The translations under genes and the position numbers were made by a program. A stretch of DNA of 64,000 bases from a phage: the sequence record PZ386961.1, one strand, 5' to 3'. This document shows, piece after piece, positions 17,374 through 63,443 of this stretch. Below the pieces are notes generated by a model. It worked only from the letters and a program-made list of their open reading frames with translations, ran no database searches and was not told the DNA's origin. Numbering within the stretch: position 1 is the first letter of the stretch; the number at the start of each line of letters is the position of its first letter.

Positions 17374-17401
17374 TTGACATAGAAAATTTGGTGAGTATAC
17401 T
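17374..17401 (+). promoter_or_regulatory. sigma70-like promoter TTGACA-N16-TATACT
   Basis: Hexamers read directly; lies immediately upstream of repeat element E1-A. Confidence 0.5.
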
Positions 17402-17434
17402 GAGCAGCATAAACCGACGGGTACTCACCAGCAT

Positions 17435-17581
17435 CACTTAAGAGTCTTTTAAAAGGGTTTTTAAGTGATGTCCGGTCGGGTGAGGTAGGGTTAAGTATTG
17501 TCCGGTACGGTAGGGTAAAGTACGGTACGGTAAGGTAAAGTAGGGTATGGGTAGTTAGTCTCAGCTACATTAAAATGAGAC
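17435..17581 (+). repeat. structured repeat element E1-A (header, NGGTN pentamer array, terminal hairpin); candidate ncRNA
   Basis: Header cacttaagagtcttttaaaagggtttttaagtga, ~80 nt of GGTAN-type pentamers, hairpin gtctca/tgagac with loop gctacattaaaa; paralog at 18987..19122. Confidence 0.6.
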
Positions 17582-17582
17582 T

Positions 17583-17715
17583 TACCTTTTTAAAAGGTCT
17601 TTAAAGAGGGTCTTTTAATGAGGTCTGGCGCGGTAGGGTCTGGTCTTGTCCGGTCGGGTATGGCATGGTGTTGTGAGGTATGGGTGGATGGTAGTAGCCA
17701 CGTTAAAAATCTACC
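17583..17715 (+). repeat. structured repeat element E2-A (header, G/T-rich array, terminal hairpin); candidate ncRNA
   Basis: Header ttttaaaaggtctttaaagagggtcttttaatgagg, G/T-rich tract, hairpin ggtag/ctacc with loop tagccacgttaaaaat; paralog at 18852..18986. Confidence 0.6.
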
Positions 17716-17773
17716 AAGTTTCTAAAGAGTCTTCTGTTGAGGGTTCTTTACAAACAACTTAACAATCAACTAA

Positions 17774-18379
<606 letters not shown>

Positions 18380-18381
18380 TT

Positions 18382-18822
18382 ATGAATACAAAAGCATTAG
18401 CAGCAAAGTTTAGTTACGGTGACACTGTATCACACTCTGAGATGGACACCTTCTTAGGTATTGTGAAGCCAACTTATCAAGGTGACATTGTTAAGTACGA
18501 AGATGAAATGAAGGCTTATGCGCTTACACGTCTAAACCGACTTGAGAAGTTTATTGAGAAGCTTCTTAAAGAAGAGAAGATTTATCTGGTTGCTTCAATG
18601 GGTGTTGGTTATCGTGTGGTTGAACCTAAGCATCAAGCAACTATTGCAAAACGCAAAATGTCTGGTAAGATTGGTCGTGCTTTAAAGCAAGCCACTCAAG
18701 CGATTGAGAATGTGAACACTATGGCACTTAGTCATCAAGAACGTTCACGACTGATTGAACAGCAAAATCACTTAGCTGCTATGAAAGCTAATATTAACAA
18801 GCAACGCAGAAAACCTTTCTAA
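18382..18822 (+). CDS. hypothetical protein (flanked by repeat elements)
   Basis: 146 aa from ATG 18382, coupled to upstream gene. Confidence 0.5.
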   Translation: MNTKALAAKFSYGDTVSHSEMDTFLGIVKPTYQGDIVKYEDEMKAYALTRLNRLEKFIEKLLKEEKIYLVASMGVGYRVVEPKHQATIAKRKMSGKIGRALKQATQAIENVNTMALSHQERSRLIEQQNHLAAMKANINKQRRKPF

Positions 18823-18833
18823 GTTGACTAGGT

Positions 18834-18856
18834 AGCCTCTTCGGAGGCTCCTTTTT
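18834..18856 (+). terminator. rho-independent terminator (agcctc-ttcg-gaggct plus T5)
   Basis: GC hairpin with ttcg loop and T-run just after stop at 18822. Confidence 0.6.
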
Positions 18857-18986
18857 AAAAGGTCTTTAAAGAAGGTCTTTTAATAAGGTAAGGCACGGTT
18901 ATGTCAGGTATGGTACGGTACGGTTAGGTAAGGTGAGGCGGAGTAAGGTATGGGTAGTTAATCGGAGCTACATTAAAATTCGATTA
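18852..18986 (+). repeat. structured repeat element E2-B; candidate ncRNA
   Basis: Header nearly identical to E2-A, NGGTN array, hairpin taatcg/cgatta with loop gagctacattaaaat. Confidence 0.6.
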
Positions 18987-19122
18987 CATCACTTAAGAGT
19001 CTTTTAAGAGGGTTTTTAAGTGAGGTGTGGCACGGTAATGTTAGGTAGGGTCAGGTCAGGTCAGGTGAGGTAAGGTAAGGTGATGTATGGAAGGATGGCA
19101 GTAGCCTTATAAAAAATCTGCC
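18987..19122 (+). repeat. structured repeat element E1-B; candidate ncRNA
   Basis: Header nearly identical to E1-A, CAGGT/AAGGT pentamer array, hairpin ggcag/ctgcc with loop tagccttataaaaaat. Confidence 0.6.
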
Positions 19123-19141
19123 AAATAAGCTATAAAATCTG

Positions 19142-19176
19142 TTGACAAGTCAGGTGTTATAGCTTATTTTTATACT
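19142..19176 (+). promoter_or_regulatory. sigma70-like promoter (TTGACA with TATTTT or TATACT -10)
   Basis: TTGACA at 19142-19147; -10 candidates at 17-nt and 23-nt spacing. Confidence 0.35.
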
Positions 19177-19214: not shown

Positions 19215-19598
19215 ATGAAAAAGATTTTATTAGCTGCTGCAATGGTTATGGCAATGAATTTATCAGTCAATGCAACAGAACTTCCAAATGTGGACTTATC
19301 AGGTGTTCCAGAGGATACTTGCCAGATTGTAAAAGGTGTTGCTCTGGCCAATGGTGAGCTACTTAAACCAATCTCTGAAGAGTCTTTAACAGAGATGACT
19401 GATAAGGTAACTGACTATCAATATCGCGTTCTTGCAGAGTATTTCCTGCAATCTGCAAATATTAAAGAGAAGCACCATGATGATATTGATGTACAGGCGA
19501 TGCTCAACCACCGTATCCAGTTTAAAGAAGATTTGATGCAAAAAGCTATGTATGGTGTTGAGTATTTCTTAGAAAACAGAAGCTGCACAGGTATTTGA
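19215..19598 (+). CDS. putative secreted protein
   Basis: N-terminal signal peptide MKKILLAAAMVMAMNLSVNA. Confidence 0.5.
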   Translation: MKKILLAAAMVMAMNLSVNATELPNVDLSGVPEDTCQIVKGVALANGELLKPISEESLTEMTDKVTDYQYRVLAEYFLQSANIKEKHHDDIDVQAMLNHRIQFKEDLMQKAMYGVEYFLENRSCTGI

Positions 19599-46690: not shown

Positions 46691-46766
46691 TGGAGAATCC
46701 GAAGGGACTCGAACCCTTATAAACCTGTTTTGCAGACAGGCACATAGCCATTTCTGTCACGGATTC
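46691..46766 (-). tRNA. tRNA-Cys (anticodon GCA)
   Basis: Manual fold: acceptor gaatccg/cggattc, loop ctGCAaa, T-loop ttcgagt, discriminator U, encoded CCA. Confidence 0.75.
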
Positions 46767-46770
46767 AAAT

Positions 46771-46863
46771 TGGAGGAAGATACCAGACTTGAACTGGTAC
46801 ACCGATTTCTCAGCTACTGGCAGTTTAGCAAACTGCTCCCTTACCTTTTAGGGTTAATCTTCC
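46771..46863 (-). tRNA. tRNA-Ser (anticodon GCU), class II
   Basis: Manual fold: acceptor ggaagat/atcttcc, loop ttGCTaa, long variable arm, about 90 nt. Confidence 0.7.
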
Positions 46864-46865
46864 AT

Positions 46866-47600
46866 TTATTTCTGTAATGCGTTCTTCATTTCTGGTGTTG
46901 CAATAGTGTCAATTACACCAGTTTTACAAGCATCATCAAACCAGTCTGGTAAGATACCTGCTAAGAACCCATTGATATTCGTTTTAAGGTACTCTGCAAT
47001 AAGAGCAGCTTCTTCTTCAATCATCTGCACAACTTCATCTGCATAAGCTGTAATCTTTGAGATACCTTCATTAATCTTACTAACAGCTTGGTTAGCTAAA
47101 TCAGAAATAGTATCAAGACCTTTGTCAATAGCGTCTTGTAAGTCACTTAACACACCATTAACACCGTCTAGTGCACTGTTAATCGTATCAATAGCTTTTT
47201 GACCATACTCTGTAGCAACACCCATAATACCACTAAATGGTGTACAGCCAACTTGTTCACCTGCTGCACCCATAACATTAGAGTAACCTTTTGCTACCTG
47301 CATACGTGATGAAAACTCATCAATGGACTTTTGACCGTAATCTGTTAGTGTTTTGGTGGTTGATGTAGTGCTTGTCAGACTCGTGGTAAAGCTGTTAAGC
47401 AGAACTGTTGTAAGTCCAGCAGCAACAAGCTTATCCTTTACTGTAGGGTCTGATACAGAGCTAATAGAGCTTACAAGTGATGTAGAGGCAGCTACGGTTC
47501 CACCGAGAACTGCTGCACCAGTAATAAGGGGGTTAGAAAACCCTTTACCTGTTTTTAAGAGATTGAAAATCTCCTTACCTTGTTCTGTCATCTCTTTCAT
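46866..47600 (-). CDS. hypothetical Ser/Thr-rich protein embedded in tRNA cluster
   Basis: Start moved to ATG 47598-47600 because the track start (GTG 47663) overlaps a tRNA. Confidence 0.45.
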   Translation of the reverse strand: MKEMTEQGKEIFNLLKTGKGFSNPLITGAAVLGGTVAASTSLVSSISSVSDPTVKDKLVAAGLTTVLLNSFTTSLTSTTSTTKTLTDYGQKSIDEFSSRMQVAKGYSNVMGAAGEQVGCTPFSGIMGVATEYGQKAIDTINSALDGVNGVLSDLQDAIDKGLDTISDLANQAVSKINEGISKITAYADEVVQMIEEEAALIAEYLKTNINGFLAGILPDWFDDACKTGVIDTIATPEMKNALQK

Positions 47601-47616
47601 TAAGCACCTTTGAAAT

Positions 47617-47693
47617 TGGTAGTCCAGTGGGATTTGAACCCTCTTCTCATGTTTTTCAGACACGCGCTTTAACCATATAAGCTACTTGGACTA
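47617..47693 (-). tRNA. tRNA-Phe (anticodon GAA), non-canonical D-arm junction
   Basis: Manual fold: acceptor tagtcca/tggacta, loop ctGAAaa; extra nucleotides between acceptor and D-stem. Confidence 0.45.
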
Positions 47694-47698
47694 TAAAT

Positions 47699-47774
47699 TG
47701 GGGTGACCTACGGGATTTGAACCCGTATAGACCATGTTCACAGCATGGGTCATTACCATTTATGATAAGGCCAC
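47699..47774 (-). tRNA. tRNA-His (anticodon GUG)
   Basis: Manual fold: loop ctGTGaa, discriminator C, T-stem acggg/cccgt. Confidence 0.7.
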
Positions 47775-47805
47775 ATTTAAGGACTCTCGTAAGAATCCTT
47801 AGAAG

Positions 47806-47881
47806 TGGCAGCGGCATAAGGATTTGAACCTTAATAGGACAGCTTCAGAGACTGCTGCATTGCCAGTTATGCTATACCGCT
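47806..47881 (-). tRNA. tRNA-Gln (anticodon CUG)
   Basis: Manual fold: loop ctCTGaa, discriminator G, D-stem gcat/atgc. Confidence 0.65.
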
Positions 47882-47886
47882 AAATT

Positions 47887-47965
47887 TGGTACTCCATATC
47901 GGATTCGAACCGATACATAACACAGATTTTAAGTCTGGCCTCTCTGCCAATTGGAGTAATGGAGC
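47887..47965 (-). tRNA. class-I-like tRNA with leucine anticodon UAA (putative tRNA-Leu without long variable arm)
   Basis: Manual fold: loop ctTAAaa, discriminator A, T-loop ttcgaat, D-loop ccaattggcagag shared with the 48947 and 49526 tRNAs. Confidence 0.45.
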
Positions 47966-47967
47966 AT

Positions 47968-48043
47968 TGGCGGGGGATGTTGGAATTGAACCAACTTCTT
48001 CGATTTCAAAGACCGAGGTTTTAACCTTGTAAACTAATCCCCT
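47968..48043 (-). tRNA. tRNA-Gln (anticodon UUG)
   Basis: Manual fold: loop ctTTGaa, discriminator G, unpaired 1-72. Confidence 0.65.
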
Positions 48044-48051
48044 TTAAATCT

Positions 48052-48609
48052 TTACTTTCTCAGTGGATGAATAAAGAATGCCAACATAACTCTTTCCCTT
48101 GAGAATGCTCTTTCTTCTGGGACAACACTTTTAAGTTTCCATCCAACATAAATTCTCCAGTAAAACTGTTTACCGAAGACTTTAATTGATGGGATAAAAG
48201 CGAATAATCCCCAAGCATTACTGTTCCACATTAGGAGATAACCAGTCTGATTATCTTCAGGGTTAGAACTTACGTTGATATTACCTTTCCACTTAGTAAC
48301 ATCTCTTACATCTCTTCCTAATACATGGTAAGAGAAGTTATAAGCTTTGTTTCTCCAGAGCCATCCGACTCTTTGCATGTAGACACCTAGTTTACCAATC
48401 CATCTAATATTAGCCCATCTTTTAACGTGACCTTCATCACCATCAATTGGGTTGTCATATGTCTCCATCCATCTGAACCCGAAAGGTAAGTGTCCTTTCT
48501 TCTCACTGTAGAATGGAACTACAAAAGGTGCTAAGATAACTGCTAAGATTGCTGCAAATGGCTCTAACAAAGCTAAGAAAATCCATGAAGCATACTTTAA
48601 GTATCTCAT
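48052..48609 (-). CDS. hypothetical Trp-rich membrane protein embedded in tRNA cluster
   Basis: 185 aa, N-terminal hydrophobic helices. Confidence 0.5.
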   Translation of the reverse strand: MRYLKYASWIFLALLEPFAAILAVILAPFVVPFYSEKKGHLPFGFRWMETYDNPIDGDEGHVKRWANIRWIGKLGVYMQRVGWLWRNKAYNFSYHVLGRDVRDVTKWKGNINVSSNPEDNQTGYLLMWNSNAWGLFAFIPSIKVFGKQFYWRIYVGWKLKSVVPEERAFSRERVMLAFFIHPLRK

Positions 48610-48848
48610 TGTCTAATCCTCGTAAGGAGGTAAATGTTATTATTCGTTTCTAAACCTTCTGGTAAAACTGTCTCAAAAATAACACTCTTCAGATGTCTAC
48701 CACCAAAACAATCACGTATAAATCTTTCTACTCTAGCGTGGTCACATAAGTATCCCACTTTTAAGAAAATGTGGTGTTCAACACCAATGACCCTGACAAA
48801 CTCAATACTCTCACAGTTTTCATGTTCAACTACTGTTAATGTTTGCAT
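48606..48848 (-). CDS. hypothetical protein embedded in tRNA cluster
   Basis: 80 aa, ATGA coupling with downstream gene. Confidence 0.45.
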   Translation of the reverse strand: MQTLTVVEHENCESIEFVRVIGVEHHIFLKVGYLCDHARVERFIRDCFGGRHLKSVIFETVLPEGLETNNNIYLLTRIRQ

Positions 48849-48865
48849 AGTATCACCTTTTTATC

Positions 48866-48941
48866 TGGCGCAGGATAAGGGATTCGAACCCCTATTAACA
48901 GCTTCGTAGACTGTTGCTCTTTCCATTTGAACTAATCCTGC
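48866..48941 (-). tRNA. tRNA-Arg (anticodon ACG)
   Basis: Manual fold: acceptor gcaggat/atcctgc, loop ctACGaa. Confidence 0.7.
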
Positions 48942-48946
48942 AAAAT

Positions 48947-49024
48947 TGGTGTTCCAAGACGGATTCGAACCGTCACTAATACAAGGTTTGAGCTTGCATC
49001 CTCTGCCAATTGGGATACTGGAAC
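48947..49024 (-). tRNA. class-I-like tRNA with leucine anticodon CAA (putative tRNA-Leu without long variable arm)
   Basis: Manual fold: loop ctCAAac, discriminator A, paralogous D-arm to the 47887 and 49526 tRNAs. Confidence 0.45.
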
Positions 49025-49025
49025 A

Positions 49026-49100
49026 TGGTACTCACTAAAGGACTTGAACCTTTTTCTTCATCTTGTAAAGGTGATGTTTTACCATATAAACTAAGCGAGT
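49026..49100 (-). tRNA. tRNA-Val (anticodon UAC)
   Basis: Manual fold: loop ttTACaa, D-stem gttt/aaac, discriminator A. Confidence 0.65.
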
Positions 49101-49196
49101 ATGAAAGAGGTCTGAAGTTGTGCCGCTAACTCAACTTCGTGGAATTTGTTACGGTCTTCAGTTGACTCAAAGCGGTCTTTCACTTGACCTCTGAAT
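49101..49196 (-). other. structured non-tRNA spacer inside tRNA cluster
   Basis: Nested inverted repeats agaggtc...gacctct and gaagttg...caacttc; no T-arm. Confidence 0.3.
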
Positions 49197-49273
49197 TGGT
49201 GCTGCTCACAGGACTCGAACCTGCATTTCCATCCTTACAAGGGATGTGTAATAGCCAATTATACGAAAGCAGC
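49197..49273 (-). tRNA. tRNA-Thr (anticodon UGU)
   Basis: Manual fold: stem catcc/ggatg, loop ctTGTaa. Confidence 0.7.
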
Positions 49274-49279
49274 ATTGTT

Positions 49280-49354
49280 TGGAGCATCCAGAGGGAATCG
49301 AACCCTCAACCTCAGTTTGGAAGACTGTAATTTTCCCGTTTAAACTATGGATGC
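49280..49354 (-). tRNA. tRNA-Gly (anticodon UCC)
   Basis: Manual fold: loop ctTCCaa, discriminator U. Confidence 0.65.
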
Positions 49355-49360
49355 ACTAAT

Positions 49361-49436
49361 TGGTGGAGAAGCAGGGAATTGAACCCTGTACTTAAGTTTG
49401 CAAAACTTATGTTTTAACCATGTAAACTACATCCCC
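49361..49436 (-). tRNA. tRNA-Ala (anticodon UGC)
   Basis: Manual fold: loop ttTGCaa, G3-U70 wobble pair, discriminator A. Confidence 0.75.
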
Positions 49437-49442
49437 ATTGTT

Positions 49443-49518
49443 TGGTACAGGTGGAGGGAATTGAACCCATCGTCTTACTGATTAAGAGTCAGCCGCATAA
49501 CCATTTTGCTACACCTGC
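49443..49518 (-). tRNA. tRNA-Lys (anticodon CUU)
   Basis: Manual fold: loop ctCTTaa, discriminator A; imperfect T-stem shared with the 50741 paralog. Confidence 0.55.
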
Positions 49519-49525
49519 ATTAATT

Positions 49526-49602
49526 TGGTACACCTAGAGAGATTCGAACTCACACTGAGCAGATTCTAAGTCTGCTGCCTCTACCAGTTGGGCTATAGGT
49601 GC
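49526..49602 (-). tRNA. class-I-like tRNA with leucine anticodon UAG (putative tRNA-Leu without long variable arm)
   Basis: Manual fold: perfect stem gcaga/tctgc, loop ctTAGaa, discriminator A, about 74 nt. Confidence 0.5.
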
Positions 49603-49858
49603 ATTAAATCTTTTTAGAGAACTTCTAAGAACCTGAGCAACAAGGTTCCACAACAAGCGACTAATAACCTTAGAAGCCCTCTAAAAAGACCTAAATAGGT
49701 CTTTGCATAGTCTTGTTTAATCCGGTGACTAGAACCTTTGGAGAGCTTGATATTATCTCTTCTCCGTGACACCTACTAGGTGCTTTGACAGTGCACGACA
49801 ATACACGAGGGATAAACCGACAATGCGAACAAGCATGGACGGAGTAAATCTTATTAGG

Positions 49859-49946
49859 CGGTAAGTAAAGGAGTCGAACCCTCACCGTATCTCTACAGTG
49901 GCAACTGTTTTCAAGACAGTTTGGCTACCATTAGCCGCTACCTACC
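49859..49946 (-). tRNA. tRNA-Ser (anticodon UGA), class II
   Basis: Manual fold: loop ctTGAaa, long variable arm, 3-bp D-stem, discriminator G, CCA not encoded. Confidence 0.65.
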
Positions 49947-49959
49947 CCTAATAAGACTT

Positions 49960-50042
49960 TGGCATGGGACGGAGGAGTTGAACCCCTTTGAAACGGTGTT
50001 GGAAGCCGTTGCTCATGCCTTAGAGTCTTAACATCGTCCCAT
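49960..50042 (-). tRNA. tRNA-Trp-like (anticodon CCA), non-canonical (about 8 extra nt between acceptor and D-stem)
   Basis: Perfect acceptor atgggac/gtcccat, stem aacgg/ccgtt with ttCCAac loop, D-region too long for standard fold. Confidence 0.35.
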
Positions 50043-50184
50043 ACTATAATTCGAAGCTTACCGTATTATCTCAACACTGTAAAGCCCCTTCTCAGATTAT
50101 TTACATGTTCTGGAAAACATGAGATACAGACCACCTCCCTACAGGAAGACCCGCTTAGGTCGTCTAAGTAATCTGCTAACTATT

Positions 50185-50261
50185 TGGCACACCCTACAGG
50201 ATTCGAACCTGTAACTCAATGATTAGAAGTCATTTGCTCTGTCCAGTTGAACTAAGGGTGC
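50185..50261 (-). tRNA. tRNA-Arg (anticodon UCU)
   Basis: Manual fold: stem aatga/tcatt, loop ctTCTaa. Confidence 0.7.
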
Positions 50262-50463
50262 ATTAATCTTTAAAGACTCTCTTAGAAAGCCCTTAAAGAT
50301 GCCCACCTTATTAATCATACCGTGGGCGAGTACGCCAAATTCTTTGATGAGGGATTGGAAGACCTCACTGGTGTTTAGCCTATCAAGCTACTGCCAGAAA
50401 AACATTGTCGTTTGCATTTATTTTAAATTTGCAAAATAGACGCTACGCAACGAAAACTAAGGT

Positions 50464-50492
50464 TACTATAAAGTAGTCACATCTCAATGTCA
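50464..50492 (-). promoter_or_regulatory. sigma70-like promoter TTGACA-N17-TATAGT inside tRNA cluster
   Basis: Minus-strand hexamers read directly; faces tRNA-Arg(UCU) and downstream tRNAs. Confidence 0.5.
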
Positions 50493-50507
50493 ACAACTTT
50501 ATTGAAA

Positions 50508-50583
50508 TTGGTACTGGTAGGTGGAATCGAACCACCGATGTTCCCTTATCAGGGGAGTGTTATAACCTTCTTAACTATACCAG
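50508..50583 (-). tRNA. tRNA-Ile (anticodon GAU)
   Basis: Manual fold: loop ctGATaa, D-stem gtta/taac, discriminator A. Confidence 0.7.
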
Positions 50584-50584
50584 C

Positions 50585-50661
50585 TTGGAGGTTCAGATGG
50601 GAATCGAACCCACATTCATAGGGCTTATGAGACCCTTGCATTACCTTATCTGCGACTGAAC
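50585..50661 (-). tRNA. tRNA-Met (anticodon CAU)
   Basis: Manual fold: acceptor ggttcag/ctgaacc, loop ctCATaa. Confidence 0.6.
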
Positions 50662-50740
50662 CAGAATAAGTACCCTAGTTAGAGAAACTGTTGAGTGGGT
50701 GTTTCCAGCCGCGCAGGTGTTTCTCAGTTAAGGGTGAATT

Positions 50741-50816
50741 TGGTAGAAGTGGAGGGATTCGAACCCATCGCCTGTCAGATTAAAAGTCTGCCGCATCACC
50801 ATTCTGCTACACTTCC
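50741..50816 (-). tRNA. tRNA-Lys (anticodon UUU)
   Basis: Manual fold: loop ctTTTaa; sequence paralog of the 49443 tRNA. Confidence 0.55.
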
Positions 50817-50820
50817 ATTA

Positions 50821-50963
50821 AATTATCTTTGTAGATAAGCTACCCAGACTTGCTTAAGGTCTGTAGCGATGTGCCTTTTGGGTTTAAATCTAGAATTTAC
50901 CCTTTCACCCTTTGTGGTCGCATACTCACAGGTAAGCTTAATAACTTATCTACAAAGATAATT
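50821..50963. repeat. 19-bp perfect inverted repeat (aattatctttgtagataag / cttatctacaaagataatt) enclosing about 105 nt
   Basis: Both arms read directly at 50821-50839 and 50945-50963. Confidence 0.6.
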
Positions 50964-51017
50964 ACCAGACCGTTGTTTATCATCTTAAGTGCTACCATTA
51001 CACCAACTCGACATCTG

Positions 51018-51050
51018 CCGAGTGAAGGAATCGAACCTTCGCCTTTTCTT
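51018..51050 (-). other. isolated tRNA T-arm-like module (gaagg-ttcgatt-ccttc) followed by hairpin actcg/cgagt; tRNA fragment or tRNA-like ncRNA
   Basis: No matching 5' acceptor strand nearby. Confidence 0.3.
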
Positions 51051-51243
51051 TACCGGAGAAATAGATTGTTTAAAGTTTGCTGTAAACGGTCTTCTGTAAA
51101 TTTGTTGAGCCAGACCAAGTTTTAAATTTTCAAAATTAAATTGGCTTGAAATTTCATACATTCTTGCTGTATTTGGTCTTCTGCTCCTTTAAAGAATACT
51201 CGTAAGAACTCTTTAAGGGAGGGGCTAAATAGCCCTCTCAAAA

Positions 51244-51321
51244 TTGGCGGTTACGAAGGGATTTGAACCCTCATCATCTCCCGTGACAGGGGAGTATTTT
51301 AACCAAATTAAACTACATAAC
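51244..51321 (-). tRNA. tRNA-Asp (anticodon GUC)
   Basis: Manual fold: stem ctccc/gggag, loop ctGTCac, discriminator G. Confidence 0.7.
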
Positions 51322-51326
51322 CTTTA

Positions 51327-51414
51327 TTGGTGTGCCGTGTAGGAGTCGAACCTACCGAGTCTCAATGACAAGGGATTTACAGTCCCCACCGCTACCATCT
51401 ACGGGATAACGACA
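51327..51414 (-). tRNA. tRNA-Tyr (anticodon GUA), class II
   Basis: Manual fold: loop ctGTAaa, long variable arm, discriminator A. Confidence 0.65.
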
Positions 51415-51424
51415 CATTTAAATT

Positions 51425-51501
51425 TGGCGGTTAGTCAGGGATTCGAACCCTGTGCCATTCGCTTAACAGGCGACCGCACATACCTTATGTGCTTCCTAAC
51501 C
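51425..51501 (-). tRNA. tRNA-Asn (anticodon GUU)
   Basis: Manual fold: loop ctGTTaa, discriminator G. Confidence 0.65.
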
Positions 51502-51584
51502 ATGTTTAGTATTACCAGACCGTATCTTTCAATTTTTCCGCTAAAAATTTAATAAGTATTGCTGTAAACGGTCTTCTGTAAATT

Positions 51585-51660
51585 TGGAGGCGGGTGCAGG
51601 AGTCGAACCTGCCGATACCATGCTAATGAGACATGTGAGACGCCCTTTCTCTATACCCGC
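51585..51660 (-). tRNA. tRNA with CAU anticodon (initiator Met or Ile2-type)
   Basis: Manual fold: loop ctCATta, unpaired 1-72, D-stem gaga/tctc. Confidence 0.5.
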
Positions 51661-51752
51661 AATTCTTAATGACCAGACCAAATCTCTTCTTTGTCCGATT
51701 TACCTTCAGATGAATAAGATTAAGTTTGCTGTAATTGGTCTTCTGTCAAAAC

Positions 51753-51830
51753 TGGCGTTCCAGAAGGGATTTGAACCCTCAAATATCCACTTTGAAAGAG
51801 TGGTGACTTTACCATTTTGTCCACTGGAAC
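51753..51830 (-). tRNA. tRNA-Glu (anticodon UUC)
   Basis: Manual fold: stem ccact/agtgg, loop ctTTCaa, discriminator G. Confidence 0.7.
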
Positions 51831-51837
51831 ATTAATT

Positions 51838-51914
51838 TGGTCTCTGTTGGAGGACTTGAACCTCCGGCCTTACCGCCCCAAACGGAACGCTCTACCAAGC
51901 TGAGCTAAACAGAG
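51838..51914 (-). tRNA. tRNA-Pro (anticodon UGG)
   Basis: Manual fold: acceptor ctctgtt/aacagag, D-stem gctc/gagc, loop ttTGGgg. Confidence 0.65.
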
Positions 51915-61860: not shown

Positions 61861-63393
61861 TTTATAAAATTTATCGGTTGTCCCAACCGCTGGGTCACCA
61901 TCATATGTGAATAAAATATCTACCCTTCTTAACAACCTTCTTAATCTTACTCTCTATATAGTTATATAGTACTATATAGTATCTTAGTATCTATCTAGTG
62001 GTCTTAATAGCCCCTCTGTATAGCCCTTCTAAACACTCTTCTAACAAGCCTTCTTAACAACCTATACAATCACCTTAACCATCTCTCTATACGCTCTTAG
62101 AAGCCTCTATACACCTCTTAATCTCTAGGTAAGCTATGTTACCCTCTATAGGTGTTCACTAGGAAATACTAAACCTCTATATAGACTGTTTTAACAAACT
62201 TAACAGGAATATCTTTACAGACCTTATCTCACAAGGTCTAACACGGTACTAACAAGGTATCTTATAAGCCTGTTTATGCCTGTATTTTTAAAAGACTGTA
62301 TAGGTAATTATTCAGATTTTTAAAATTTTTATAAAATAGGACTATCAAGTCATTTTTTAGGGTCTTTGAAGGAACTCAAAAATATCTGTAGAAGATGTAT
62401 ATCTGCTTGGTAGCCCTTAACATCCCTGTAACATCCCCTTTGCAGAATTTTAAAGTATCCTTAACAATCTCTTAACAACTCTCTCAAGTTCTTAACATCT
62501 CTTCAGAGGTCTTAACAGATTCTTAACAGAACTAACAAGGTTGTAACAAGTTCTTAACAGTTGATACATGGGCTTTACAGAATCTTAACAGATGACTAAC
62601 AAGAGCTAACAAGTTAATTTTAAAGAGTTATTTTGTTAAGATAATTAACAAGTTTCTAACAAGTGTTTAATCTTTTTAACAAGCTATTAACATGGTCACT
62701 ACTCTTTTCTTATCGTTCCCTTTGCTTCTTAGTGATTCTTTAAACATACCTCTTAAAAGCTCTCTATAGCTCCTTGTAAGCTCTTTTAAGCCTCTTCCTA
62801 GTATTTACCCCTCAACTGTATGGATAGCTCTTTATAGGGCTTTACAGAGGCTTTTAAGGATATGCCAAAGACTCTTACAAGGCTTTTACGTGGTCTTAAC
62901 AGAGATTTAACAAGGGGCTAACAAGTCTCTAACAAGCATAACTATGTAGGGTTTGTTAAGAAATTGTTAAGGGGGCTAGCATTTACGTAACTTTTAAGCT
63001 ACTTTCTAAGTAACTTTAAAGCCCCTATAACATACTTTTTAGTGACTATCAAGGGGGTTGTTTAGTTATTCACAAGATACTAATCAGCCTATAAGCTTAC
63101 ACCCTTATAAGATTCTTTTAAGGCTCTGGGAAGCTCTATAAAGGGCTTTTTAGAGTGGGTTAATATGATTGCTTAAGTTAGGTTGATAAGGCTGTTATAG
63201 AGCTTTATAGAGCGTTTTAGTGGTTGCCCTTCCCTTTCGGGTTATGGGCTTTTATTTAAGTTGATTTGATAAGAGGTTATAGAGTAGACTATAGAGTTAT
63301 TGCTTTTAAGGTACGGGATAGATTCTATCGAATTAGTGGGATAGATTCTGGAAAGGGAAGGGAAAGGGTTGTATAGAGGCTATTACAGAGACG
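61861..63393. repeat. 1.5 kb repeat-dense non-coding region (CTTAACAG/CTAACAAG iterons, CTCTATAG and TATATAGT repeats, palindromes)
   Basis: No ORF of 60 aa or more; many short direct repeats read directly. Confidence 0.6.
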
Positions 63394-63443
63394 TAAAAAA
63401 GCCCCTATGAGATAGATTCTATCGAATCAATATAAAGGGGCTG
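63394..63443 (-). terminator. rho-independent terminator (agcccct...aggggct plus T6) with palindromic loop GATTCtatcGAATC
   Basis: Minus-strand stem followed by T-run downstream of 63481..63729. Confidence 0.5.

What the first reader, a model, noticed from the sequence alone, without database searches (positions are those of the whole stretch)
17435..17715. Two tandem ~135-nt structured elements built from NGGTN pentamer arrays (E1-A, E2-A) behind a sigma70 promoter
Each element has a conserved header with duplicated GTCTTTTAA-like boxes, about 80 nt of tandem GGTAN/AGGTN pentamers, and a terminal hairpin. Neither is coding and neither looks like a CRISPR array or tRNA. A promoter at 17374 would transcribe both, so they are candidate small RNAs; G-run spacing would also allow two-tetrad G-quadruplexes. 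The repetitive short motifs are the architecture of a protein-titrating sponge RNA, although the motif is GGU-type rather than the GGA of CsrB.
Basis: seen in the sequence. Interest (0 to 1): 0.85.

Follow-up and report, generated by a model that had tools for sequence, protein, structure and literature searches.

The report
Phage VIPR guide RNAs (vrRNAs)
The two repeat-built elements are guide RNAs of a VIPR system, a phage-encoded, CRISPR-related RNA-guided DNA-silencing system first described in 2026 preprints, so the finding is real but already explained.

Summary
The window is a Felix O1-like myovirus. It carries four such elements, not two: two upstream (17432-17716) and two downstream (18850-19123) of a two-gene cassette.

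Each element has three parts: a hairpin header, 12-17 in-phase pentamers, and a 3' pseudoknot. In the pentamers GGY is conserved and the two N positions are free. The pseudoknot is supported by compensatory changes in 9 of 12 pairs.

I applied the published one-nucleotide-skip code to the four guides. Each finds an outlier match (81-96% of NN positions) in an ~11 kb E. coli satellite element. There are no matches in the phage itself, and no unit-order shuffle reaches these scores.

The sponge and G-quadruplex readings are not supported.

Novelty: already known, though only since 2026 and absent from Rfam, Pfam and GenBank annotation.

The parts
17374..17401 (+). Sigma-70-type promoter (TTGACA-16-TATACT) upstream of vrRNA E1A. 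An inverted repeat, GGTGAGTA 17390-17397 / TACTCACC 17422-17429, brackets its -10 element and start site.
   Evidence: Promoter scan, 11 of 12 matches. The same promoter is conserved in Felix O1 and SUSP1 upstream of their first vrRNA.
17432..17470 (+). Header hairpin, type 1 (CAUCACUUAAGAGUCUUUU/AAAGGGUUUUUAAGUGAUG). Its 3' arm contains the constant first unit GTGAT. It is a candidate processing site (inference).
   Evidence: RNA fold -16.1 kcal/mol, z -6.9; inverted repeat I3.
17465..17549 (+). vrRNA E1A repeat tract: 17 in-phase G-Y-N-N-G units. Guide NN code: GA CC CG GA AG TA AT CC AC AG AA AC AC AA AA AG, followed by the constant unit GTATG.
   Evidence: The 1-nt-skip target lies in a 555-nt satellite gene (L056 7359-7406, 26 of 32).
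17550..17582 (+). E1A 3' tail, an H-type pseudoknot. S1 is GTAG 17551-54 / CTAC 17565-68. S2 is AGTCTCA 17557-63 / TGAGACT 17576-82. The A-rich loop is 17569-75.
   Evidence: Covariation count on 19 distinct tails: 87.7% of cells paired, 9 of 12 pairs with compensatory change, slid controls <=45%.
17584..17624 (+). Header hairpin, type 2 (ACCUU.UUAAAAGGUCUUU/GAGGGUCUUUUAA.GAGGU), lying between E1A and E2A.
   Evidence: RNA fold -14.1 kcal/mol. TRF finds period-13 boxes at 17588-17626.
17623..17682 (+). vrRNA E2A repeat tract: 12 units. Guide NN code: CT GC AG CT CT CC CG AT AT GT GA.
   Evidence: The target lies in the satellite baseplate gene (L055 13381-13413, 20 of 22).
17683..17716 (+). 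E2A 3' tail pseudoknot (S1 GTGG/CCAC; S2 TGGTAG/CTACCA).
17792..18379 (+). vipr gene: a 195-aa RAMP (Cas7-like) protein that would polymerise on the GGY repeats.
18382..18822 (+). vap1 gene: a 146-aa VIPR accessory protein.
   Evidence: 99% identical to SUSP1 ALH47068. The fold is inconclusive: pLDDT 68, and only weak winged-helix-like Foldseek hits with best E 0.24.
18834..18858 (+). Intrinsic terminator after vap1, directly upstream of E1B.
   Evidence: Terminator scan: AGCCTCTTCGGAGGCT followed by a T-run.
18850..18986 (+). vrRNA E1B: type-2 header, 13 units (18888-18952; guide AA AC TA CA AT AC AC TA AA GA GG AA), then a pseudoknot tail (S2 AATCGGA/TTCGATT, containing a G.U pair).
   Evidence: The target lies in a satellite non-coding region (L055 6175-6210 and L050 872-907, 23 of 24).
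18986..19123 (+). vrRNA E2B: type-1 header, 14 units (19020-19089; guide GA GT AC AA TA AG CA CA CA GA AA AA GA), then a pseudoknot tail (S1 AAGG/CCTT; S2 TGGCAG/CTGCCA).
   Evidence: The target lies in a 330-nt satellite gene (L057 8862-8900, 24 of 26).
19123..19176 (+). AT-rich hairpin plus T-run that ends the downstream vrRNA array. It overlaps the promoter (19142-19170) of the next gene (19215-19598).
   Evidence: Inverted repeat I2; fold; promoter scan.

Best explanation
The region is a type II VIPR (Viral Interference Programmable Repeat) locus of the SUSP1 clade. It holds four vrRNA genes, two on each side of vipr-vap1.

**Published mechanism for the near-identical SUSP1 system (not shown here).**
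- The RNAs are matured to ~100 nt.
- Vipr, a minimal Cas7-like RAMP, polymerises along the repeat tract, one protomer per pentamer, capped by the 3' pseudoknot.
- Each GGY is flipped out and held by protein.
- The NN dinucleotides pair with double-stranded DNA that reads NNxNNx..., skipping one target base per unit.
- This forms an R-loop triplex that blocks transcription.

**Shown here by computation.**
- The four RNAs have the defining anatomy.
- The proteins are the same as those of SUSP1.
- The four guides are directed at four sites of an ~11 kb E. coli chromosomal satellite element that shares tail genes with the phage, and not at the phage itself.

**Inferred.**
- The phage uses the locus to silence this satellite during infection.
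- The conserved header hairpins between vrRNAs are processing sites.
For: **Anatomy.** Over 67 distinct arrays the pentamer composition is G 97%, Y 99%, N, N, G 82%. The headers and tails are nearly invariant while NN is hypervariable between phages. The pseudoknot covaries.

**Proteins.** Vipr is 97% and Vap1 99% identical to SUSP1. The Vipr fold is a RAMP. The GGY-contacting residues named in the cryo-EM preprint are conserved.

**Code.** With a 1-nt skip the guides score as follows in satellite loci:

| Guide | NN match |
|---|---|
| E1A | 26/32 |
| E2A | 20/22 |
| E1B | 23/24 |
| E2B | 24/26 |

Each guide hits the same syntenic position across genomes. None of 300 unit-order shuffles reaches the scores observed in the four loci tested (25/32, 20/22, 23/24, 22/26). 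Skips of 0 or 2 give only background scores; skip 3 finds only each array's own sequence. The best self-matches are 62-71%. Of 75 distinct guides from related loci, 49 reach >=80%, almost all in the satellite, and several are perfect.

**Independent transcription unit.** The satellite and Felix O1 copies have their own sigma-70 promoter and terminator.

**Experiments.** sRNA-seq, Vipr co-purification, GFP repression and cryo-EM were done on SUSP1.
Against: - No expression or binding data exist for this phage.
- A strong terminator lies directly upstream of E1B/E2B, and no good sigma-70 promoter is seen in their headers, so how they are transcribed is unexplained.
- E1A reaches only 81% NN match in the satellites sampled (87% if the constant first unit is dropped).
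- Only one of three coding targets has the skip base at the wobble position, whereas the preprint reports that as the rule.
- The source papers are preprints.
Confidence: 0.93

Rival explanations
1. Protein-titrating sponge RNA. On this view the many GGU motifs soak up a host or phage RNA-binding protein, as CsrB does with CsrA.
For: The motif is periodic and short, and it is indeed bound by a protein, one protomer per unit. The number of units and of elements varies between phages. Vipr-less phages such as Felix O1 keep one element, which could in principle soak up a rival's Vipr.
Against: The non-conserved NN positions carry specific information. Each guide matches a defined satellite site far above shuffled controls, and only with a 1-nt skip. 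A sponge would not need that. The motif is not GGA in hairpin loops. Reprogramming NN alone redirects repression in SUSP1.
Confidence: 0.03
2. A DNA- or RNA-level G-rich structure: arrays of two-tetrad G-quadruplexes, or an R-loop-forming replication origin behind a promoter, as in Ig switch pentamers.
For: The arrays are 41-43% G and 6-13% C on the non-template strand. The GG-N3 spacing would allow two-tetrad quadruplexes. The locus sits among replication genes (ligase, polymerase).
Against: The pyrimidine after GG is 99% conserved, while one of the two Gs is only 82%. A quadruplex predicts the opposite pattern. The covarying pseudoknot and G.U-containing hairpins point to a + strand RNA. Satellite copies are stand-alone genes with promoter and terminator, in elements that do not share the phage replication module. 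Cryo-EM shows the Gs held singly by protein.
Confidence: 0.02
3. Type III toxin-antitoxin-like module, or a pseudo-antitoxin. On this view the tandem pseudoknotted RNA repeats neutralise a downstream endoribonuclease toxin, as with ToxI and ToxN.
For: The layout is promoter, tandem RNA repeats with pseudoknots, then a ~200-aa gene. The repeat copy number varies between phages.
Against: The downstream protein has a RAMP/Cas7 fold, not a ToxN/AbiQ fold. The units are ~135 nt with internal pentamer arrays, not ~36-nt repeats. Elements also occur without the gene.
Confidence: 0.01

Closest known systems
VIPR type II system of Escherichia phage SUSP1 (bioRxiv 10.64898/2026.04.26.720920; cryo-EM companion 10.64898/2026.04.26.720927)
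   Same: - Same genomic slot, between the DNA ligase gene and the 127-aa gene.
- Vipr is 97% and Vap1 99% identical.
- Same vrRNA anatomy: GGY/NN pentamers plus a pseudoknot tail.
- Same two header types and the same tail types.
- Same class of target: an E. coli satellite.
   Different: - The arrangement is 2 + 2 vrRNAs here, against 1 + 3 in SUSP1.
- The four guide sequences differ.
- E1A has 17 units (including constant first and last units), slightly above the 9-16 range quoted for the clade.
- The host phage is a Felixounavirus, not a Suspvirus.
Class 1 CRISPR-Cas effector backbones (Cas7/Csm3/Cmr4 filaments on crRNA)
   Same: - One protomer binds per fixed RNA step.
- A thumb flips bases at a fixed period.
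- A variable guide is capped by a conserved handle.
   Different: - There is no CRISPR array, no Cas1/Cas2 and no repeat-spacer structure.
- The period is 5 nt, with 3 bases flipped, rather than 6 nt with 1 flipped.
- The guide is non-contiguous.
- The system is encoded by a virulent phage.
TRAP-binding RNA of Bacillus (11 G/UAG triplets with 2-3 nt free spacers)
   Same: Both have a conserved triplet plus two free nucleotides, repeated in phase, each bound by one subunit of a protein oligomer. This rests on my own knowledge of TRAP, not on a test here.
   Different: In TRAP the spacers carry no information, and the complex regulates the RNA itself. Here the spacers are the functional code for DNA recognition.
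CsrB/RsmZ-type sponge RNAs
   Same: Both are small RNAs with many copies of a short G-rich motif bound by a protein.
   Different: The motif here is GGY, not GGA. It is not presented in hairpin loops, and it keeps a strict 5-nt phase. The function is guidance, not titration.

Membership tests
VIPR system (type II, SUSP1 clade) | vrRNA built of tandem YNNGG pentamers, with conserved GGY and hypervariable NN (9-16 units, up to 30 reported) | tested here: met
   There are 12-17 in-phase units in each of the four elements. Over 67 distinct arrays the composition is G 97%, Y 99%, N, N, G 82%.
VIPR system (type II, SUSP1 clade) | Invariable 3' tail forming a pseudoknot | tested here: met
   Twelve pairs in two helices. 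S1 is 100% paired, 9 pairs show compensatory changes, and slid controls are <=45% paired.
VIPR system (type II, SUSP1 clade) | Adjacent vipr gene encoding a small RAMP homolog (RRM core, G-loop, thumb) | tested here: met
   [not shown]
VIPR system (type II, SUSP1 clade) | Residues that read GGY and the skipped base (H17, D177, R138, W178, E71, M72, R179, C173, K33) | tested here: met
   All are present at the same positions. Position 175 is V here and in SUSP1, where the preprint text says T.
VIPR system (type II, SUSP1 clade) | Accessory vap gene next to vipr (vap1, a predicted DNA-binding protein) | tested here: met
   The 146-aa protein is 99% identical to SUSP1 Vap1. The DNA-binding fold itself is inconclusive.
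VIPR system (type II, SUSP1 clade) | Guides find natural DNA targets under the 1-nt-skip rule (>=80% NN match), without self-targeting | tested here: met
   The four guides match satellite sites at 81%, 91%, 96% and 92%. None of 300 shuffles reach the four-locus scores; skips of 0 or 2 give background and skip 3 finds only the arrays themselves. The best self hits are 62-71%.
VIPR system (type II, SUSP1 clade) | vrRNAs are expressed as ~100-nt RNAs and co-purify with Vipr, and the complex represses transcription of the target | not testable with these tools
   This was shown experimentally for SUSP1 only. Here a promoter and terminators are present.
CsrB-type sponge RNA | Multiple GGA motifs, mostly in hairpin loops, that bind CsrA | tested here: not met
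   The motif is GG followed by a pyrimidine in 99% of units. The array is not folded into loops. There is no Rfam CsrB/RsmZ match.
CRISPR array | Identical direct repeats of ~28-37 nt alternating with unique spacers, with cas1/cas2 nearby | tested here: not met
   The repeats are 5 nt and there is no repeat-spacer pattern. There is no CRISPR-DR match in Rfam. The locus has only two protein genes.
Type III toxin-antitoxin (ToxIN-like) | ToxN/AbiQ-fold endoribonuclease downstream of short (~36 nt) tandem RNA repeats | tested here: not met
   The downstream protein has a RAMP fold, and the RNA units are ~135 nt.

The most novel reading that the evidence does not exclude
Relatives that have lost vipr, Felix O1 itself among them, keep a single promoter-vrRNA-terminator unit. 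In Felix O1 the NN code of that unit matches the vipr gene of VIPR-carrying relatives: 19 of 22 at window 18256-18288 and 20 of 22 in SUSP1. The skipped base falls on the codon wobble position, and 1 of 400 shuffles reaches the score.

If real, these orphan guides would be loaded by a co-infecting rival's Vipr and turn it against its own gene. That would be guide parasitism serving as an anti-VIPR weapon among closely related virulent phages.

For the window itself, the corresponding open reading is that its header hairpins and the 2+2 layout reflect a processing and expression scheme that has not yet been described.
Probability: 0.3. Interest if true: 0.6.

Novelty: already known. Interest (0 to 1): 0.4.

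Why it matters
VIPR is a very recently reported mode of RNA-guided DNA recognition. It uses a gapped, non-contiguous code read by a minimal Cas7-like protein, and it has been proposed as an ancestor of CRISPR effectors.

This window shows that the system can be recognised from raw sequence alone. It is also widespread in Felix O1-like phages that are used for typing and biocontrol.

Public annotation still labels the RNAs 'DR_4 repeat', 'possible StbAB site' or nothing at all, and the proteins 'hypothetical'. The guide-to-target map obtained here gives directly testable predictions: four sites in an E. coli satellite that carries tape-measure and baseplate genes. Those predictions bear on which bacterial strains' satellites this phage can silence, and so on host range and on phage-satellite conflict.

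Tried and rejected
**Database searches with no result.**
- Rfam at gathering and at E<=5 finds nothing in the region.
- Pfam finds nothing for either cassette protein, and PHROGs finds only families of unknown function.
- Papers on Felix O1, wV8 and Bas63 mention direct repeats or nothing relevant.

**Hypotheses considered before the literature hit, then set aside.**
- A ring protein binding a triplet plus spacer, as TRAP does.
- Arrays of two-tetrad G-quadruplexes.
- An R-loop origin behind a promoter.
- A rut site on the minus strand.
- Geminivirus-type GGTAG iterons next to a hairpin.
- T7-type primase sites ((G/T)GGTC).
- A sponge for tRNA 3' RCC or for the anti-Shine-Dalgarno sequence.
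- ToxI-like pseudo-antitoxins.
- GcvB mimicry.

**What ruled them out.** They did not survive three findings: the stand-alone promoter-RNA-terminator copies in the satellite, the RAMP fold of the neighbouring protein, and the target matches.

**Other searches that led nowhere.**
- Exact-pattern scans of IMG/VR with two full guides found only the satellite contig already in hand, or nothing.
- The Vap1 fold search was inconclusive.
- The constant last unit GTATG does not extend the target match.

Full report
**1. Observation**

The sequence at 17435-17715 is as described. A sigma-70-type promoter lies at 17374-17401 (TTGACA-16-TATACT). Behind it are two tandem units of about 150 and 135 nt.

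Each unit starts with a header containing two GTCTTTWAA-like boxes. It continues with a G-rich tract in perfect 5-nt register and ends in a short structured tail. The tracts have 17 units (17465-17549) and 12 units (17623-17682), and every unit reads G-Y-N-N-(G). When the same letters are shuffled, at most 8 units fall in phase.

Scanning the whole window on both strands for period-5 GG finds only four places. Two are these units. The four copies align over their whole length.

**2. Anatomy**

- **Header.** The 'boxes' are the two arms of ~18-bp hairpins rich in G.U pairs. Type 1 (E1A, E2B) folds at -16.1 kcal/mol with z -6.9; type 2 (E2A, E1B) folds at -14.1 kcal/mol.
- **Tail.** It is not a simple hairpin but an H-type pseudoknot. 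Among the four copies, S1 reads GTAG/CTAC, GTGG/CCAC or AAGG/CCTT. S2 reads AGTCTCA/TGAGACT, AATCGGA/TTCGATT, TGGTAG/CTACCA or TGGCAG/CTGCCA. The third loop is A-rich.
- **Covariation in the tail.** I collected 19 distinct tails from related loci. Of the cells, 87.7% pair, 9 of 12 pairs show compensatory changes, S1 is 100% paired, and sliding the partner by 1-3 columns drops pairing to 27-45%.
- **Strand.** The G.U pairs mean the + strand is the folded strand.

**3. Relatives**

The window is a Felix O1-like myovirus. 231 phage records match the region. GenBank labels the elements only as 'DR_4' repeats (wV8), as a 'possible binding site of StbAB' (KhF3), or not at all. Rfam has no family for them.

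Across phages the headers and tails are almost invariant. The two N positions of each pentamer differ freely, and the number of units (8-17) and of elements (1-5) varies. Over 67 distinct arrays the pentamer composition is G 97%, T 90% / C 9.5%, N, N, G 82%.

The four elements flank two genes of unknown function, 17792-18379 (195 aa) and 18382-18822 (146 aa). Neither has a Pfam match. Felix O1 lacks both genes but keeps one element between two promoters.

A degenerate tail pattern scanned against IMG/VR also found divergent copies in E. coli chromosomal elements. There the RNA is a stand-alone gene with a sigma-70 promoter (TTGACG-16-TATAAT) and an intrinsic terminator. That settled the question in favour of an RNA gene and against a DNA-level element.

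**4. Identification**

A full-text search for pentanucleotide repeats, small RNA, prophage and pseudoknot returned a June 2026 bioRxiv preprint (10.64898/2026.04.26.720920). It describes VIPR systems, which consist of three components:
- a Vipr protein, a small RAMP homolog;
- a Vap accessory protein;
- vrRNAs made of 9-16 YNNGG repeats, with conserved GGY and hypervariable NN, plus an invariable 3' tail that forms a pseudoknot in the SUSP1 clade.

The model phage, SUSP1, is one of the loci I had already fetched (L005). It has one vrRNA upstream and three downstream of vipr-vap1.

The preprint reports four ~100-nt RNAs by sRNA-seq, co-purification with Vipr, and a targeting rule. Under that rule the NN dinucleotides pair with double-stranded DNA while skipping one target base per unit. 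No PAM is needed, either strand can be targeted, and the outcome is transcriptional repression.

A companion cryo-EM preprint (10.64898/2026.04.26.720927) shows one Vipr protomer per repeat in a helical filament. The GGY bases are held by protein, the pseudoknot caps the 3' end, and an R-loop triplex forms on the target.

**5. Membership tests run here**

- **Proteins.** The 195-aa protein is 97% identical to SUSP1 Vipr, and the 146-aa protein is 99% identical to SUSP1 Vap1.
- **Family.** It belongs to a family of more than 500 clusters without any Pfam domain, from phages and from diverse bacteria.
- **Residues.** The residues the cryo-EM paper names as reading G1, G2, Y3 and the skipped base are all present.
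- **Vap1 fold.** This could not be confirmed. The single-sequence model has pLDDT 68, and there are only weak winged-helix-like hits.

**6. Targets**

I converted each of the four window guides into the published 1-nt-skip query and scored it without gaps on both strands of the window and of eight satellite loci. Each guide has one outlier match, at the same syntenic place in several genomes.

| Guide | NN match | Target |
|---|---|---|
| E1A | 26/32 (26/30 without the constant first unit) | 555-nt gene, L056 7359-7406 |
| E2A | 20/22 | baseplate gene, L055 13381-13413 |
| E1B | 23/24 | non-coding region, L055 6175-6210 and L050 872-907 |
| E2B | 24/26 | 330-nt gene, L057 8862-8900 |

- **Controls.** None of 300 unit-order shuffles reaches the scores observed in the four loci tested (25/32, 20/22, 23/24, 22/26). 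Skips of 0 or 2 give only background; skip 3 finds only each array's own sequence. The best matches inside the phage are 62-71%, and those to Felix O1 are at most 77%.
- **Generality.** Across 75 distinct guides from all loci, 49 reach >=80%. Almost all of these fall in the satellite, and several are perfect (24/24, 20/20) or near-perfect (32/34).
- **The satellite.** It is an ~11.4 kb element that splits a DUF72 gene between yecN and yecD, or sits at yciI. It carries a serine recombinase, tape-measure and baseplate genes and an HNH endonuclease. It has no vipr or vap1. This fits the preprint's statement that 18 of 20 SUSP1-clade targets fall in a satellite.

**7. What remains unexplained**

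- **Transcription of the downstream pair.** E1B and E2B lie directly behind a strong terminator (18834-18858), and their headers contain no good sigma-70 promoter. They are made either by read-through or from an unrecognised promoter.
- **Header hairpins.** They are conserved, and their 3' arm includes the constant first unit. I infer that they are processing sites, but this is untested.
- **Codon phase.** Only one of the three coding targets has the skipped base at the codon wobble position.

**8. Verdict**

The interpretation as small RNAs with a protein-binding periodic motif is right, but the sponge and G-quadruplex readings are not. The elements are vrRNAs of a VIPR system that is essentially the published SUSP1 system with a different set of guides.

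The kind is therefore already known, although only from 2026 preprints and not yet in any annotation resource. Interest is moderate. There is nothing new in kind, but the result gives a clean independent confirmation of the code on new guides and a concrete target map. It also yields one lead that may be new: the Felix O1 orphan guide that matches vipr.

Noticed in passing
L004 2949-3190 (Felix O1); target at window 18256-18288: Felix O1 has no vipr or vap1 anywhere in its genome (tblastn) but keeps one promoter-vrRNA-terminator unit. Its 11-unit guide matches the vipr gene of this window at 19 of 22 positions and SUSP1 vipr at 20 of 22. The skipped base falls on codon position 3, and 1 of 400 shuffles reaches 19. 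It may be an anti-VIPR orphan guide.
   Followed up: partly
phage collection as a whole: 231 phage records carry vrRNA-like DNA, but only 133 carry a Vipr homolog by tblastn. Of those, 118 are Ounavirinae at >=90% identity, and 15 are distant ones in Gordonia, Mycobacterium, Pseudomonas and Listonella phages. Many Felix O1-like phages therefore have orphan vrRNAs.
   Followed up: partly
L055 5689-5892 (minus strand); also L054 9100-9300, L035 640-830, L045 8080-8270, L050 400-590: Some E. coli satellite elements carry one stand-alone vrRNA gene (sigma-70 promoter, 10-13 units, pseudoknot, intrinsic terminator) but no vipr. Their guides match other satellites; for example the L054 guide scores 20 of 22 at L058 4655-4687.
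   Followed up: partly
L055 1210-1245 (also L056 996-1031, L057 541-576, L058 1489-1524): The best match of the L055 satellite's own guide (21 of 24) lies in the host torZ-cmoB intergenic region, about 2.7 kb outside the satellite. It is conserved in four genomes. It could be chance or a host target.
   Followed up: no
window 61900-63400: About 1.5 kb is dense with short TCTTAACA / CTTTACAG-type direct repeats and TATAG repeats. Similar CTTAACA motifs surround the E1B target in the satellite's non-coding region (L055 6140-6280). It may be a shared control, replication or packaging region.
   Followed up: no
window 17432-17470, 17584-17624, 18850-18890, 18986-19024: The conserved headers between vrRNAs fold into ~18-bp hairpins rich in G.U pairs. 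The two types have different outer stems around a shared core. They are candidate double-strand-specific processing sites that would release the individual vrRNAs.
   Followed up: partly
window 17390-17397 and 17422-17429: The inverted repeat GGTGAGTA / TACTCACC brackets the -10 element and the start site of the vrRNA promoter. It is conserved in Felix O1 and SUSP1 and may be an operator.
   Followed up: no
L055 13381-13413, L057 8862-8900, L056 7359-7406: Among the three coding targets of the window's guides, the skipped base falls on codon position 1, 2 and 3 respectively. The preprint reports that skips overwhelmingly fall on the wobble position.
   Followed up: partly
window 46691-51914 (minus strand): There is a cluster of 26 tRNA genes covering most amino acids. 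This is typical of Felix O1-like phages.
   Followed up: no
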